IMG/VR virus record: IMGVR_UViG_3300029417_000062
Coordinates: 1 to 7,678 of that record
Strand: one strand, 5' to 3'
From: a virus
Taxonomy: Duplodnaviria; Heunggongvirae; Uroviricota; Caudoviricetes
Length of the DNA: 7,678 bases
Every line of letters begins with the position of its first letter. The first letter of the stretch is position 1. Shown here one piece after another: positions 1,146 to 7,678 of this stretch. The notes beneath the pieces are model-generated. The model saw nothing but the letters and a program-made list of their open reading frames with translations, was not told the DNA's origin and did no database searches. The position numbers were made by a program, and so were the translations under genes.

Positions 1146-1203
1146 AAAACGGCGGCAGAGCAGTCACGGAGTAAAACTGATACCGCCAAACGTCACCAGA
1201 AAA
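1146..1203 (-). ncRNA. dicF: DicF small RNA (53-nt core 1203..1151 plus U-tract)
   Basis: Reverse complement of 1151..1203 reads TTTCTGGTGACGTTTGGCGGTATCAGTTTTACTCCGTGACTGCTCTGCCGCC, followed by GTTTTT. This matches the DicF sequence as I remember it, including the GGCGG...CCGCC terminator stem. Position between the ydfB/C region and dicB is the canonical one. Confidence 0.85.
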
Positions 1204-1461
1204 TTGATAACAGAGGGCGTTGCAGCGGGGTTGTCGCTTAAGCGTATGGTCAACCTGACAACTCGGTGTCCTCAACGGGGAAGGAATAACCCCGCCATAC
1301 TTACCGCCGCGCCATTTCGCGGGTTGCCACAACCGGAAGCGCACGGTCGAATTAAATTTGACGACACCGTACAGTGAGACGAACTTCGCCGTGCGCTTTC
1401 GTGTTGTGTGCCTGCTTTTAACCACGTCAGGCGAGGTGGTATCCTTAAAATCACCACAGTT

Positions 1462-2037
1462 TTAAGGATTCATTAAGCAATGTCGCAACCACCAATAAAT
1501 CCGCTTAAGAACATGAAAATTGATTACTGGTATAAAGCGCTTACAGTTGTTGGCGCTGCGTTGTTTGTCTTTAATGGAACGTCTTTTTTTGACAGATATC
1601 CCGTTGTTCCATTGGTTTTTTTGTCCTCCGGCATCTTTTTTATTGGTTTGGGGGAGTGGATTAATCACCCTCTCAAAGTGAGATTTATTGGTCCTGGAGT
1701 TTGGACTCGTGGATATAATCGTTCTTCGTGCGCACTCGGTATCATCTTCGACATACTTGGTTGTTTCCTGATTGTTACAGGAGTCGTCAAGTTCTTCTGA
1801 TGTAAAACCGCAAATGGGGCACGTAACGGGAATTTTGAAAAGCGTTTCTCCGGGTTCCAGAACAAAATTTTCTGCGGTCTGATTTTGCTTCTCATATTTG
1901 TGCTCCGCGTCATTGTGAGAGCGCATTCTTATTCTGAGTGCCTGTTTAAACTCACTGAAGCTGAGAGCTTCTTCGCCTTCGGCAAGGCCTTCGAAGTATT
2001 CTTCGTAAGCCTTTTCCATGATTGTGTCGAAATCCAT
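1462..2037 (-). CDS. Hypothetical protein, 191 aa; acidic N-terminal region with a YdfB-like start and a CPxCG motif. The C-terminal half is low-complexity and may be read-through.
   Basis: ATG at 2037..2035 with AGGTGA 5 nt upstream, one nt after the ydfA stop (tight coupling). The first ~85 residues look like real protein (MDFDTIMEKAYEEYFEGLAEGEEALSFSEFKQALRIRMRS...PVTCPICGF). Residues after ~90 are N/K/R/S-rich and lie codon-aligned antisense to the plus ORF 1480..1800, so part of this ORF may be an antisense artefact. In K-12 this interval is annotated as two short genes (ydfB, ydfC). Confidence 0.5.
   Translation of the reverse strand: MDFDTIMEKAYEEYFEGLAEGEEALSFSEFKQALRIRMRSHNDAEHKYEKQNQTAENFVLEPGETLFKIPVTCPICGFTSEELDDSCNNQETTKYVEDDTECARRTIISTSPNSRTNKSHFERVINPLPQTNKKDAGGQKNQWNNGISVKKRRSIKDKQRSANNCKRFIPVINFHVLKRIYWWLRHCLMNP
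1480..1800 (+). CDS. Candidate small membrane protein (106 aa, about 3 predicted TM helices), encoded antisense to the 3' half of the 191-aa minus ORF
   Basis: ATG at 1480 with AAGGA 11 nt upstream. Three clean hydrophobic segments (ALTVVGAALFVF, VVPLVFLSSGIFFIGLG, CALGIIFDILGCFLIVTGVV). Its codons are exactly aligned with the opposite-strand ORF, so one of the two is probably spurious. Confidence 0.3.
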   Translation: MSQPPINPLKNMKIDYWYKALTVVGAALFVFNGTSFFDRYPVVPLVFLSSGIFFIGLGEWINHPLKVRFIGPGVWTRGYNRSSCALGIIFDILGCFLIVTGVVKFF

Positions 2038-2038
2038 A

Positions 2039-2194
2039 TCACTCACCTGAGTTTCTTTCCAGCCAGCGACGGGCACCATTTTCGGTTTTAAACGTTTTGC
2101 TTTTGGTATACGTCATTGCGGTGAACGTGCCGTCCTGGTTTGGAAACACGCCGTACACCAGAGATTCGTTGTTGCCAAGATCGATAGTATCCAT
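2039..2194 (-). CDS. ydfA: YdfA-like small protein (51 aa), first gene of the DicA-repressed leftward operon
   Basis: ATG at 2194..2192 with GAGG 5 nt upstream. Product MDTIDLGNNESLVYGVFPNQDGTFTAMTYTKSKTFKTENGARRWLERNSGE. Length and position next to dicA match Qin ydfA from memory. The track ORF 2039..2350 extends upstream through the promoter region and is not credible beyond this ATG. Confidence 0.75.
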   Translation of the reverse strand: MDTIDLGNNESLVYGVFPNQDGTFTAMTYTKSKTFKTENGARRWLERNSGE

Positions 2195-5210: not shown

Positions 5211-6591
5211 TTAAGTCTGAGCCTCACTCTCTTGGCCATAAGTGGCTTGCCAGTATCTCGCCGTAGGGTTCATTAGAATGTGCAATACAAGCCACCATGC
5301 AAAAATGCAGGGAGGTTGATTGTAGTAACCGGCAGGCACATATCCGTGAGCTAGTTGATTTCGTAAATCACCATAGATTTTATCTACCAGTAAGGCCTGA
5401 AGATTGCCAATTATGTCTACGCCGAAAGCTTCAATAATCAGTGGATTATCTAGTAATCCCTTGAGTCCATTTCGCTCTTGCGAACCGTCCCCGTGAAGCT
5501 GCGATGGTTCCTCACCTTTAATTTTAGCCACATATCTCAGACTATTTTCGATCTGGGGAATCAACACGTGGCATGCCGTCATAAAATCTCCATTGAAACC
5601 GCAAACCATACCCTTGATGAAAAACTCTTCATGCCCAAACGGGATGAAGGGATGATTGATGAACATATCGCGAAAAAACGCCTCCGAGATTGGATATTTC
5701 ATTGTGATCTCATCTGTAGCAGGAATAATTTGCCCAGCTACTGCCAACTCATGGTCGATACGCATTCTCGTCATCATTATGGGCCAAATAACTGCCCCAT
5801 TTGCATCATCAATCCCCAATCCTGCGGGTATGCGAGCAAGTGTCATTCCCTCATGATCAATATGTGTTGATCCAAACATCCAAGCTATGCTGTTGGCCTT
5901 TTGTTCTATTGCTTGAGCCTTAAGTCTCTCAATGCTGGTTGGCCGACAGACCAGCATCGCAAGTCTGAAAACCATATCAAACATATCTCTTCCGACTACC
6001 CGACTCTTGGCTTGATGGACAATCTCACTAATATCTTGAGGGGGAGACTGAAGGATAGACATCTGGTGACGGGATTCGATTTGGTAATCACGCATTTCTT
6101 CATACAGCGCAAGACGTTCTATTCGGGTTCCTGGAATATTAGCCAGTGCTTCAATAGCATTCTGCATGCAGGCTGCCGAAATCATACCGCCATCTTGGAA
6201 TTTTGACTCTTCCAGATGTGTATCGGCAAGAAGCCGCCAGAATTCAAACTGTGTATCTCTGTCACAGCACCTATTCGCAATCGTGATTGCGGTTTTACAG
6301 GCATCGACGGCAAATGAAAATAATTTTTGAGCCAGATAGTTTTTTGTCAGAAACAGGAGTTCCTGGGCAATAAAAGATGGCTCACTCACTTTACAGTCGA
6401 TATCGAGTTGCAGGAGTCGCAGCGGATAAGGTGAATCGCCTTGTTCTCTGGTACGTTCATACTCTGCTAGTAGATGTGCCGAAAGCTGATCAAATTCATC
6501 CCTGAAATCAGTATTCTTTCGAAAAAAACAACACAGCCTAAGCGCACGCTCTAGGCGTTCTAAAGCACTAACCCACGTCCCTTGCGATGTC
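5211..6591 (-). CDS. C-terminal portion (about 460 codons) of a large protein with a HEPN-like Rx4HxY motif; 5' end interrupted by the IS. Candidate abortive-infection/toxin RNase.
   Basis: Continuous minus-strand ORF ending at 5211. RNQLAHGY is encoded at 5340..5363 (R 5361-5363, H 5346-5348), about 45 residues from the C-terminus, and fits the HEPN Rx4-6H / HepT-type Rx4HxY signature. The six-frame ORF (5211..6776, 521 aa) takes its first 61 codons from IS sequence. No in-frame ATG occurs in the first ~136 native codons, so the native N-terminus is missing. Confidence 0.6.
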
Positions 6592-6633
6592 TGAACCGCC
6601 CCGGGTTTCCTGGAGAGTGTTTTATCTGTGAAC
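6592..6633. repeat. IS terminal inverted repeat region (orfB-proximal end)
   Basis: Begins with 5'-TG and lies immediately beyond the orfB stop (6634), as expected for an IS3-family end. The other end is outside the window, so the pairing cannot be confirmed. Confidence 0.5.
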
Positions 6634-7524
6634 TCAGGCTGCCAGATCATCGTTTCCGATGGAAGCATAATAAGCTTTTTCTGCTTCTGCCGGAGGAGTA
6701 TGGCCCAGCCTTTCCAGCAATCGTCGATTGTTATACCAGTCCACCCACGTGAGTGTGGCCAGTTCCACTTCTGCACGGTTTTTCCAGCTCTTACGGTGTA
6801 TTACCTCCGCTTTGTAAAGACCATTGATGCTCTCCGCCATCGCGTTGTCATACGAGTCGCCTGTACTTCCTGTTGATGCCAGTAATCCGGCTTCCTTAAG
6901 CCGCTGTGTGTAGGCCAGCGATACATACTGAGAACCTTTATCACTGTGATGGACCGTGCCGGACGGTCGACGGGCCCATAACGCCTGCTCCAGTGCATCC
7001 AGCACGAATGTCGTTTCCATGGACGATGAGACCCGCCACCCCACGATGTATCCGGCAAACACATCAATGATGAACGCCACATAGACGAAGCCCCGCCATG
7101 TGCTGACGTAAGTAAAATCAGCCACCCACAGCTGGTCAGGTCGTTCTGCCACGAACTGACGGTTTACGCGGTCGCCTGCGGCAACGGCTTTCCGGCTGAT
7201 GGTCGTACGGACCTTTTTACCCCGGAGAACACCGGCAAGTCCCATAACCGCCATGAGACGTGCCACAGTGCATCTGGCCACTCTGATACCTTCCCGTAAC
7301 AACTGACGCCAGACTTTACGCACACCGTATACCTTGTGATTTTCATCGTATACGCGCTGTATCTCTTTCTTCAGCCAGTCATCGCGCTGCGCACGGGCAC
7401 TGCGTTTATCCGGATGATGTCGCTGTTGCTGACAGTGGTAATACGTTGACGGGGCAATATGCAGTTCGCTGCATAGCGGTCCGACCCCGTACTGCTCACG
7501 CAGCTTATCCAGCAGTGGCATCAT
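6634..7524 (-). CDS. IS3-family transposase OrfB (DDE integrase-like catalytic domain), 296 aa
   Basis: Product [22 protein letters not shown]... contains D (WVADFTYV), D (HHSDKGSQY) and E ([15 protein letters not shown]) motifs. The start overlaps the orfA stop in the -1 frame. Confidence 0.9.
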
Positions 7525-7678
7525 TTTTTCCAGAGGCGGTCGAACTCCGCCTTCGCAAAATAAGCGGAAGCCTGGCGAAGGATATCGTTACTGCGGCGCA
7601 GTTCACGATTTTCACGTTCCAGCTCTTTCAGACGCTGACGTTCAGCGGTGGTGAGCCCGCCATCACCGCCTCCGGTAT
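7521..7678 (-). CDS. IS3-family transposase OrfA, C-terminal 52 codons (partial; 5' end outside window)
   Basis: Minus-strand frame reads ...[51 protein letters not shown] (leucine-zipper-like), stop at 7523..7521, overlapping the orfB ATG (7524..7522). Confidence 0.85.

What the first reader, a model, noticed from the sequence alone, without database searches (positions are those of the whole stretch)
1462..2037. Codon-aligned antisense ORF pair: 191-aa minus ORF versus 106-aa plus-strand membrane-protein ORF
The minus ORF has a convincing N-terminal region of about 85 residues, but a low-complexity N/K/R-rich C-terminal half. The plus ORF (1480..1800) on the opposite strand encodes three clean hydrophobic helices and has its own SD. 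In K-12 this interval is annotated as two short genes (ydfB, ydfC) with a long gap before dicF. The true coding content here is unresolved and could include an unannotated small membrane protein.
Basis: seen in the sequence. Interest (0 to 1): 0.5.

Follow-up and report, generated by a model that had tools for sequence, protein, structure and literature searches.

The report
Prophage membrane gene inside antisense ORF
The 106-codon plus-strand ORF is a real, conserved small membrane-protein gene sitting in the 'sieB' exclusion-gene slot of a lambdoid prophage, and the longer opposite-strand ORF is a real early gene whose tail simply reads, without stop codons, across it.

Summary
Both ORFs exist as described and share codon register. 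Across 1480-1800 only the plus frame is under amino-acid purifying selection: dN/dS is 0.03-0.23, against 1.2-2.5 in the minus frame for close pairs. The plus protein belongs to an uncharacterised ~100-110 aa three-helix membrane family (489 clusters, no Pfam model). Its start is preceded by a conserved structured element. That element matches 32 of 35 bases in the 3' domain of the published P22 sas antisense RNA. The same element lies upstream of sieB in P22 and lambda, and upstream of at least 23 other small cargo families in the same prophage slot. So the plus ORF is a cargo gene of the sieB/sas slot, oriented against the early-left (dicBF) operon. The minus ORF is also real up to residue ~79. 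It is a chimera of the YdfB N-terminus and a conserved CPxCG knuckle domain. Its 112-residue tail has no sequence constraint of its own. Even so, embedded lineages avoid the three plus-frame codons that would create antisense stops (10/224 versus 124/548, p=6e-11), so the frame is kept open. An exclusion or abortive-infection role is inferred from position only.

The parts
1480..1800 (+). 106-aa three-helix inner-membrane protein gene, the cargo of the sieB-type slot. Invariant family motifs are W17-Y18-K19, G56xGEWxNHP64, G87 and G94.
   Evidence: Plus-frame dN/dS is 0.03-0.23, with substitutions concentrated at plus codon position 3.
1462..2037 (-). 191-aa early-left operon ORF. It starts 1 nt after the ydfA stop and ends inside the sas-like hairpin.
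   Evidence: It is a chimera made of the three sub-parts listed below.
1936..2037 (-). YdfB-homologous N-terminal 34 codons of the minus ORF.
   Evidence: Window 2265-1937 is 99.4% identical to K-12 DNA, and similarity stops at 1937. It matches phrog_2061.
1801..1935 (-). Module-specific, non-overlapped part of the minus ORF. It ends in the conserved knuckle GE.(I/L)(F/C).IP..CP(I/V)CGF, with CPICGF at 1804-1821.
   Evidence: The codon alignment shows synonymous third-position variation across lineages. Population SNPs between 1801 and 2037 are 7 synonymous, 4 non-synonymous and 1 stop.
1462..1800 (-). 112-codon tail of the minus ORF, antisense to the whole plus gene. It is open but not constrained in sequence.
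   Evidence: Minus-frame dN/dS is 1.2-2.5 for close pairs. Identity between deep lineages is about what the plus-frame constraint alone predicts. Stop-complement codons are avoided.
1408..1445 (-). Conserved scaffold of a sas-like antisense RNA. It holds two interleaved helices: GCCTG 1410-1414 with CAGGC 1428-1432, and ACCAC 1421-1425 with GTGGT 1436-1440.
   Evidence: It is invariant across lineages whose coding dS is saturated. It matches 32 of 35 bases in the 3' domain of the sequenced P22 sas RNA (using the sequence in PMC13397905). The inner pair of the second helix covaries.
1443..1467 (-). Covarying hairpin (CCTTAAAA / TTTTAAGG). It overlaps the plus SD and the minus stop codon (TAA, 1464-1462).
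   Evidence: Sixty unique homologous sequences give 24 different arm pairs, with 345 Watson-Crick pairs and 18 wobble or A-C pairs.
1437..1445 (+). Putative extended -10 promoter element (TGgTATCCT) for the plus gene. This is inferred.
   Evidence: TAT.CT is present in every cassette recovered whose ATG lies 27-39 nt downstream, though GTGGTAT was part of the search pattern. P22 and lambda have GTGGTTCT here instead, and P22's mapped sieB promoter lies further downstream. The generic promoter scan did not call it.
1464..1468 (+). Shine-Dalgarno sequence AAGGA of the plus gene.
   Evidence: The position is conserved at the 3' arm of the hairpin in all cassettes.
2039..2194 (-). ydfA (DUF1391), the gene upstream of the minus ORF in the same operon.
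1150..1201 (-). DicF sRNA, downstream in the same early-left operon.
   Evidence: Rfam RF00039, 72.5 bits.

Best explanation
Both strands of 1462-2037 are coding, but unequally. SHOWN: the plus ORF (1480-1800) is a bona fide gene for a conserved 106-aa three-helix membrane protein. SHOWN: it occupies the slot that sieB occupies in P22 and lambda. That slot lies next to the immunity repressor, points against the early-left operon, and is directly preceded by a conserved structured element. The element is homologous to the 3' domain of the P22 sas antisense RNA. INFERRED: the gene is expressed from the prophage through an extended -10 at 1437-1445 and acts as a membrane-located exclusion or abortive-infection cargo. 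When the early-left (dicBF-type) operon is transcribed, a sas-like RNA covering its SD and start codon shuts off or re-programmes its translation. SHOWN: the minus ORF is a real early-left gene through residue ~79 (YdfB N-terminus fused to a CPxCG knuckle domain). In relatives that carry sieB, this domain is followed by a separate C-terminal region that overlaps sieB by only ~40 nt. Here that region is replaced by whatever the antisense of the cargo encodes. SHOWN: the resulting tail has no amino-acid constraint of its own, yet the frame is kept free of stops. INFERRED: ribosomes translate through the antisense cargo up to the sas-like element. Selection acts on uninterrupted translation or on having a long hydrophilic tail, for example to avoid Rho polarity on the sas-like RNA and on dicF/dicB. 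It does not act on the tail's sequence.
For: Plus gene:
- tblastn finds distant homologs only for the plus frame (mEp390 38%, Bcep176 gp33 47%).
- 60 database proteins of ~100-110 aa match it. A profile search finds 489 clusters at 50% identity. The 29 genome loci span several proteobacterial classes and other phyla.
- Differences by plus codon position are, for example, 11/7/35, and plus dN/dS is 0.03-0.23.
- The structure model is confident.

Slot and sas:
- The element is conserved upstream of the gene in lineages with saturated dS.
- At least 120 viral contigs carry it. In those with enough flanking DNA it lies upstream of small ORFs falling into 23 cargo families. They sit beside a CI-like repressor and are opposed to the flanking early-left genes.
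- The same element lies upstream of sieB in P22, lambda and L395/L396.
- It lies inside the RNA-seq-defined P22 sas RNA.
- The hairpin shows covariation.

Minus gene:
- The knuckle motif shows a synonymous-variation pattern, and the SNP spectrum fits coding.
- The domain family includes sieB-associated proteins with a distinct C-terminal region.

Open tail:
- Six embedded lineages, five of them enteric (E. coli-type, Escherichia sp., a 58%-identity type, Yersinia, Pantoea, mEp390), have 0/87 stop-complement codons against 53/243 A-ending codons in four-fold boxes (p=2.5e-8).
- Non-embedded family members have 117/411 against 211/828 (p=0.27).
- All 14 embedded lineages together have 10/224 against 124/548 (p=5.7e-11).
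- Co-directional family members carry 3-16 antisense stops.
- Minus-frame identity is about what plus-only constraint predicts.
Against: - No expression data exist for either ORF in this prophage.
- The simple promoter scan found no sigma-70 site upstream of the plus gene, and the -35 is poor.
- The plus protein has no similarity to SieB (no PF14163 hit) or to any PADLOC model. Fold searches gave only generic helical-bundle matches. Its function therefore rests on position alone.
- Many family members lie outside prophages.
- Against the anti-polarity idea: untranslated stretches of 260-480 nt follow the minus ORF anyway.
- Some lineages end the ORF 33-129 nt short of the cargo start, and most other cargo families have antisense stops.
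- The strand on which the element functions is inferred from P22 sas and from helix geometry. G-U versus A-C counts do not decide it (7 versus 11).
Confidence: 0.7

Rival explanations
1. Only the plus gene is functional. The minus ORF beyond the knuckle domain is an untranslated or irrelevant read-through, and its openness is a by-product of the plus gene's codon usage, that is, a classic shadow ORF in the codon-aligned antisense frame.
For: Minus-frame dN/dS exceeds 1 in the overlap. There is no extra amino-acid conservation. The tail composition is exactly the mirror of hydrophobic codons. PGAP sometimes drops the ORF. One nonsense allele in the tail and one in the N-terminal part occur in the population.
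Against: Stop-complement codons are specifically missing, while other A-ending codons are used normally in the same genes. The depletion is confined to lineages where the gene is embedded antisense to an operon. The upstream knuckle domain is under purifying selection and has no stop of its own, so ribosomes must run into the tail.
Confidence: 0.17
2. The pair is truly dual-coding. The 112-residue basic tail is itself a functional domain of the minus protein, for example a nucleic-acid-binding or disordered tail attached to a zinc knuckle. Its composition, not its sequence, is under selection.
For: The frame is kept open over ~110 codons in most embedded lineages. The tail is always hydrophilic and basic. 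Relatives with sieB carry an arginine-rich C-terminal region (RRERRNRTR). A second cargo type, a 66-aa zinc ribbon, is also fully covered by an open antisense frame.
Against: There is no detectable amino-acid constraint beyond what the plus frame imposes. Tail length varies, and the tail is truncated in some lineages. The composition arises automatically from the antisense of a membrane protein.
Confidence: 0.1
3. The minus ORF is the only real gene, and the plus ORF is a chance antisense ORF.
For: PGAP and PHROGs (phrog_35040) treat the minus ORF as the gene. mEp390_039 is annotated on that strand.
Against: Substitutions pile up at plus codon position 3. Plus dN/dS is 0.03-0.23 against minus values above 1. 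Plus homologs of constant length occur in organisms where the antisense frame carries 3-16 stops. The model is confident, and a conserved SD and leader cassette precedes the start.
Confidence: 0.02

Closest known systems
P22 / lambda sieB locus with the sas antisense RNA (Ranade & Poteete 1993, as cited in PMC12197685 and PMC7067206; sas sequence in PMC13397905)
   Same: The genomic slot and orientation are the same: next to the immunity repressor and convergent with the first early-left gene. The conserved element lies upstream of the gene in both, and the window matches 32 of 35 bases of the sas 3' domain. An equivalent hairpin follows the element. In both cases the cargo is a hydrophobic protein presumed to be expressed from the prophage.
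   Different: The cargo protein is unrelated to SieB: 106 aa against 166-192 aa, with no PF14163 match. The leader is much shorter, 38 nt from element to ATG against 74 nt in P22. The mapped P22 promoter position therefore cannot apply. No Esc-like internal product is demonstrated. In P22 and lambda the N-position gene does not overlap sieB, whereas here the early-left ORF covers the whole cargo.
E. coli K-12 Qin ydfB / ydfC (dicBF operon)
   Same: The operon is the same (dicA-like repressor, ydfA..., dicF, dicB, ydfD). The first 34 codons of the minus ORF are ydfB.
   Different: K-12 ydfB ends 8 codons after the shared part. K-12 ydfC is unrelated to window 1420-1936. K-12 has no plus-strand cargo and only a degenerate copy of the element.
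Antisense overlapping gene pairs proposed in bacteria, such as the EHEC nog1, laoB, asa and pop reports (recalled from memory, not checked here)
   Same: A protein-coding ORF is fully embedded antisense in another ORF, in the codon-aligned frame.
   Different: Here the embedded (shorter) ORF is the conserved, constrained one. The covering ORF's overlapped part shows frame maintenance without sequence constraint. The evidence here is comparative, not Ribo-seq.
Type I toxin-antitoxin modules (small membrane protein plus cis-antisense RNA over the translation start)
   Same: A small hydrophobic protein has its SD and start covered by a structured antisense RNA.
   Different: The protein is about twice the usual toxin length. 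It has conserved polar motifs and a beta hairpin. Toxicity is untested. The antisense RNA is homologous to sas, not to known type I antitoxins, and no Rfam match was found.

Membership tests
SieB protein family (Pfam PF14163) | Sequence match to the SieB profile | tested here: not met
   A Pfam scan of the plus protein at E<=1 gave no SieB hit. True SieB proteins in the same slot do carry PF14163.
sieB-slot cargo (positional class) | Gene lies beside the immunity repressor, is oriented against the early-left operon, and is preceded by the sas-type element | tested here: met
   The window order is dicA-like repressor, ydfA and the minus ORF on the minus strand, and the cargo on the plus strand. 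The same layout with CI/S24 repressors appears.
sieB-slot cargo (positional class) | Confers superinfection exclusion or abortive infection from the prophage | not testable with these tools
   This needs phage challenge of strains expressing the 106-aa protein.
sas-like cis-antisense RNA | Sequence and structure homology to P22 sas | tested here: met
   The window matches 32 of 35 bases of the sas 3' domain. The element lies inside the 127-nt sas read cluster mapped to P22. The hairpin covaries, and the inner pair of helix 2 covaries.
sas-like cis-antisense RNA | Complementary to the 5' UTR and start codon of the slot gene | tested here: met
   The element and hairpin end 12 nt before the plus ATG. 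In P22, sas runs from 2 nt beyond the sieB ATG through the element. An RNA of equal extent here would cover 1404-1482.
sas-like cis-antisense RNA | A discrete stable RNA is produced and switches translation | not testable with these tools
   There are no transcript data for this prophage, and no Rfam family exists.
YdfB (K-12 b1572) | Full-length similarity to the 42-aa protein | tested here: not met
   Only residues 1-34 are shared, and DNA similarity stops at window 1937.
Functional dual-coding antisense gene pair | Purifying selection on the amino-acid sequence in both frames of the overlap | tested here: not met
   Plus dN/dS is 0.03-0.23, and minus dN/dS is 1.2-2.5 for close pairs and 0.57-0.79 at saturation. 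Minus identity is about the null expectation.
Functional dual-coding antisense gene pair | Both reading frames maintained open beyond chance | tested here: met
   Stop-complement codons are 0/87, or 10/224 over all embedded lineages, against 22-23% A-ending codons in the control boxes.
Class I holin | Three transmembrane segments, ~100 aa, encoded in the lysis cassette next to an endolysin | tested here: not met
   The size and the three helices fit, but the gene lies in the immunity and early region, not a lysis module. There was no holin match with meaningful score.

The most novel reading that the evidence does not exclude
The sieB position of lambdoid prophages is a general cassette slot. 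A conserved sas-type RNA scaffold, plus an extended -10, a hairpin and an SD, drives and counter-regulates at least 23 unrelated families of small uncharacterised cargo proteins, this 3-TM family among them. When a cargo is inserted against the early-left operon, selection purges antisense stop codons from it. The operon's first ORF can then be translated straight across it. This would be frame maintenance without sequence constraint, a distinct and testable category of overlapping gene that may serve to prevent Rho polarity on the self-immunity RNA.
Probability: 0.35. Interest if true: 0.8.

Novelty: new variant of a known kind. Interest (0 to 1): 0.62.

Why it matters
- It resolves an annotation conflict that affects at least 793 complete E. 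coli genomes. PGAP annotated either the 191-aa minus ORF or only a 'ydfB fragment' in the three genomes inspected, and PHROGs has a family built on the minus ORF. The conserved gene is on the other strand.
- It defines an uncharacterised membrane-protein family (489 clusters) with sharply conserved polar motifs.
- It places that family in a slot whose known occupant is a superinfection-exclusion gene. This gives a direct functional hypothesis.
- It extends the P22 sas/sieB paradigm to a cassette system with many unknown cargos. These are obvious candidates for prophage-encoded defence or host-modulating genes.
- It gives comparative evidence for selection on an open antisense frame without selection on its product. 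That bears on the long-running argument about whether long antisense ORFs in bacteria are genes.

Tried and rejected
- Pfam, NCBIfam, PHROGs and PADLOC scans gave nothing for the plus protein. For the minus ORF, Pfam, NCBIfam and PADLOC gave nothing, and PHROGs returned only families of unknown function: phrog_35040 and the ydfB phrog_2061.
- Rfam at gathering and at E<=10 found no family for the element.
- The simple promoter and terminator scan found nothing relevant.
- RNAalifold on a MAFFT alignment recovered only the first helix, because the variable hairpin is out of register. I therefore counted hairpin arms directly.
- I considered that the CA-rich loop and GTTGTGTG flank might mark an AgvB-type anti-sRNA. 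I rejected this because those RNAs lie at the PR' moron site. The Pas sRNA preprint was also irrelevant.
- I considered nutL/boxB or HK022 put-like antiterminator RNA. I rejected this on position (downstream of the first early gene, not upstream) and on loop size.
- I considered a zinc ribbon for the minus protein, but no conserved second Cys pair exists.
- Shallow population SNPs inside the overlap were too few to discriminate the frames.
- The primary sas paper (Genes Dev 1993) is not held. Statements about how sas is made rest on secondary sources and on memory.
- A literature search found no paper naming this ORF or describing the slot as a hotspot.

Full report
**Context.** The window is the early region of a Qin/DicB-type lambdoid prophage of E. 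coli.
- On the minus strand lie ydfD (DUF1482), dicB, the DicF sRNA (1150-1201), the ORF in question, ydfA (DUF1391) and a DicA-like repressor.
- On the plus strand lie cro, ydaT-like and O-like genes.
- The 701-bp interval is at least 80% covered in 793 of 5426 complete E. coli genomes.
- Most other genomes share only window 1937-2100, which is ydfA plus the first 34 codons of ydfB.

**Observation.** Both ORFs are present and codon-aligned.
- PGAP annotates the 191-aa minus ORF in one genome (WP_000344958.1).
- In near-identical genomes where both ORFs are intact, PGAP annotates only a 'ydfB partial pseudogene'.
- The plus ORF exists in databases as 'hypothetical protein'. It has no Pfam, NCBIfam, PHROG or PADLOC family. 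The minus ORF does have a PHROG family.

**Which frame is coding in the overlap?** The plus frame.
- tblastn against phages finds distant relatives only for the plus protein. These are mEp390 (38%, on the strand opposite to the annotated mEp390_039) and Burkholderia phage Bcep176 gp33 (47%, annotated on the matching strand).
- Protein searches give a family of ~100-110 aa proteins in Yersinia, Pantoea, Herminiimonas, Reinekea, Pseudomonas, Shewanella, Arcobacter, Desulfobulbaceae and others. Motifs W17-Y18-K19 and G56xGEWxNHP64 are invariant. A profile search finds 489 clusters at 50% identity.
- Seven gap-free 106-codon enteric sequences were compared pairwise. Differences fall on plus codon position 3 (for example 11/7/35). 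Nei-Gojobori dN/dS is 0.03-0.23 in the plus frame and 1.2-2.5 in the minus frame for close pairs.
- For lineages with saturated dS, minus-frame identity (0.29-0.40) is barely above what plus-protein constraint alone predicts (0.29-0.34).
- AlphaFold2 gives a confident three-helix plus beta-hairpin model. It has no specific structural neighbour.

**The minus ORF is nevertheless real in its 5' part.**
- Between 1801 and 2037, population SNPs are 7 synonymous, 4 non-synonymous and 1 stop.
- The ~20 codons just before the overlap encode GE.(I/L)(F/C).IP..CP(I/V)CGF. The motif is conserved from E. coli to Yersinia with synonymous third-position changes.
- A related P.G....P.Y..CPxCG domain precedes the overlap in other lineages, including a Roseateles prophage.
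- Comparison with K-12 shows that window 1420-1936 replaces the K-12 ydfB 3' end and ydfC. The 191-aa protein is therefore YdfB(1-34) fused to this knuckle module.
- A profile search shows that the knuckle domain also occurs in 81-96 aa proteins with a distinct C-terminal region (...ELVRRERRNRTRLEK...). These are encoded right after CI and overlap a convergent sieB by only ~40 nt.
- In the window type, that C-terminal region is replaced by the antisense of the cargo.

**The open tail is more than chance.**
- The aligned antisense frame has no stop in six embedded lineages: window type, Escherichia sp. (84%), a 58% type, Yersinia (51%), Pantoea and mEp390.
- Within these genes TTA/CTA/TCA make up 0/87 Leu and TCN-Ser codons. 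A-ending codons in other four-fold boxes are 53/243 (Fisher p=2.5e-8).
- In 22 other family members the figures are 117/411 against 211/828 (p=0.27).
- Adding eight more embedded lineages gives 10/224 against 124/548 (p=5.7e-11).
- Family members that are co-directional with their neighbours carry 3-16 antisense stops. Those embedded against an operon are the open ones.
- mEp390 shows the same open frame although the pair sits in the early-right operon and has no sas element.
- The frame is therefore maintained, but its product is not.

**What the plus gene is attached to.**
- A ~45-nt element just upstream of the start (1408-1445) is invariant among lineages whose coding dS is saturated. It is followed by a hairpin whose 3' arm runs into the SD.
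- A pattern scan found it in at least 120 viral contigs.
- In those with enough flanking DNA it lies 27-39 nt upstream of the ATG of small ORFs (58-163 aa) that fall into 23 unrelated families. They sit in the same place: beside a CI-like repressor and opposed to the early-left genes. Ten representative cargos have no Pfam family apart from weak, sub-threshold zinc-ribbon matches for two.
- Every one of 60 unique sequences has the hairpin, with 24 different arm pairs.
- The inner pair of the second helix covaries as C-G, A-T and T-A.
- The same element lies upstream of sieB in L395/L396, in P22 (29,650-29,684, just before the annotated sieB promoter and start site) and in lambda, where sieB is convergent with N.
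- The P22 sas antisense RNA, as sequenced in PMC13397905, maps to this stretch. It contains the element as its 3' domain, and the window matches 32 of 35 bases.
- sas is described as a cis-antisense RNA that switches sieB translation between SieB and Esc (PMC12197685, PMC7067206).
- The plus ORF is thus a non-SieB cargo in the sieB/sas slot.
- All short-leader cassettes recovered read GTGGTAT.CT, an extended -10. GTGGTAT was part of the search pattern. P22 and lambda read GTGGTTCT and use a promoter further downstream. A plus TSS near 1452 is therefore my inference.

**Mechanism, and how far it is shown.**
- Shown: the plus gene is conserved and constrained.
- Shown: slot and element homology with sieB/sas.
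- Shown: the minus 5' domain is constrained.
- Shown: the minus tail is unconstrained but stop-free.
- Inferred: prophage expression and an exclusion or abortive-infection role for the membrane protein. This rests on position only.
- Inferred: repression by a sas-like RNA made when the early-left operon fires.
- Inferred: translation through the antisense cargo is what selection preserves, possibly to keep Rho off the transcript until the sas-like RNA, dicF and dicB are made.
- Weakening the last point: long untranslated stretches follow the ORF anyway, some lineages stop 33-129 nt early, and most other cargo families are not covered by an open frame.

**Verdict.** The locus is a new variant of a known system, the sieB/sas slot. 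It carries an uncharacterised cargo family and an unusual, statistically supported, stop-free antisense read-through.

Noticed in passing
window 5211-6776 (-): A 521-aa ORF matches the PADLOC candidate defence model PDC-S39 (E=1e-81). It lies between the replication module and an IS element.
   Followed up: no
window 6634-7524 (-) and 7450-7566 (-): An IS3-family transposase ORF is present, with an Rfam ALIL frameshift pseudoknot (RF01497, 120 bits).
   Followed up: no
L277-L394 (viral contigs), e.g. L364, L374, L370, L289, L295, L298: The sas-type element precedes at least 23 unrelated families of small cargo ORFs in the sieB slot. Ten representatives have no Pfam family, apart from weak sub-threshold zinc-ribbon matches for two. 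This looks like an unexplored accessory-gene hotspot.
   Followed up: partly
L371/L349 and L383/L287: A 66-aa four-Cys zinc-ribbon cargo in the same slot is also completely covered by a stop-free, codon-aligned antisense ORF of 118-126 aa. In L371/L349 that ORF starts with the MSTSANRK...C.SCG knuckle domain.
   Followed up: partly
L395 3001-3276 and L396 3001-3246: The N-position protein of sieB-carrying relatives joins the knuckle domain to an arginine-rich stretch (RRERRNRTR). The stretch is reminiscent of the N-protein ARM, a resemblance I recall from memory and did not test.
   Followed up: no
L005 2456-2911 (mEp390_039); phrog_35040: The mEp390 annotation and a PHROG family rest on the operon-sense ORF, whose larger part is the antisense of the conserved membrane protein. 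The conserved gene itself is unannotated there.
   Followed up: yes
window 1513-1515 (Met12 of the plus ORF): An in-frame internal ATG (MKIDYWYK) is conserved in all enteric 106-aa members, while non-enteric members have Leu there. By analogy with SieB/Esc it could be an alternative start used when the sas-like RNA blocks the first one. This is speculation.
   Followed up: no
L035 (Shigella flexneri CP182557): The copy of the plus gene is heavily frameshifted and interrupted by stops, so it is a pseudogene. P0058 and P0066 are similar decayed variants.
   Followed up: no
L025-L027 (Arcobacter sp. NZ_CP182343): Three identical copies of a family member occur at distant chromosomal sites, which suggests a repeated mobile element.
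   Followed up: no
L123/L124 (P0067, P0068, P0070): In some prophages the minus ORF has no stop after the cargo. It continues in frame through the sas-like element into a ydfC homolog, giving 245-271 aa gene calls.
   Followed up: partly
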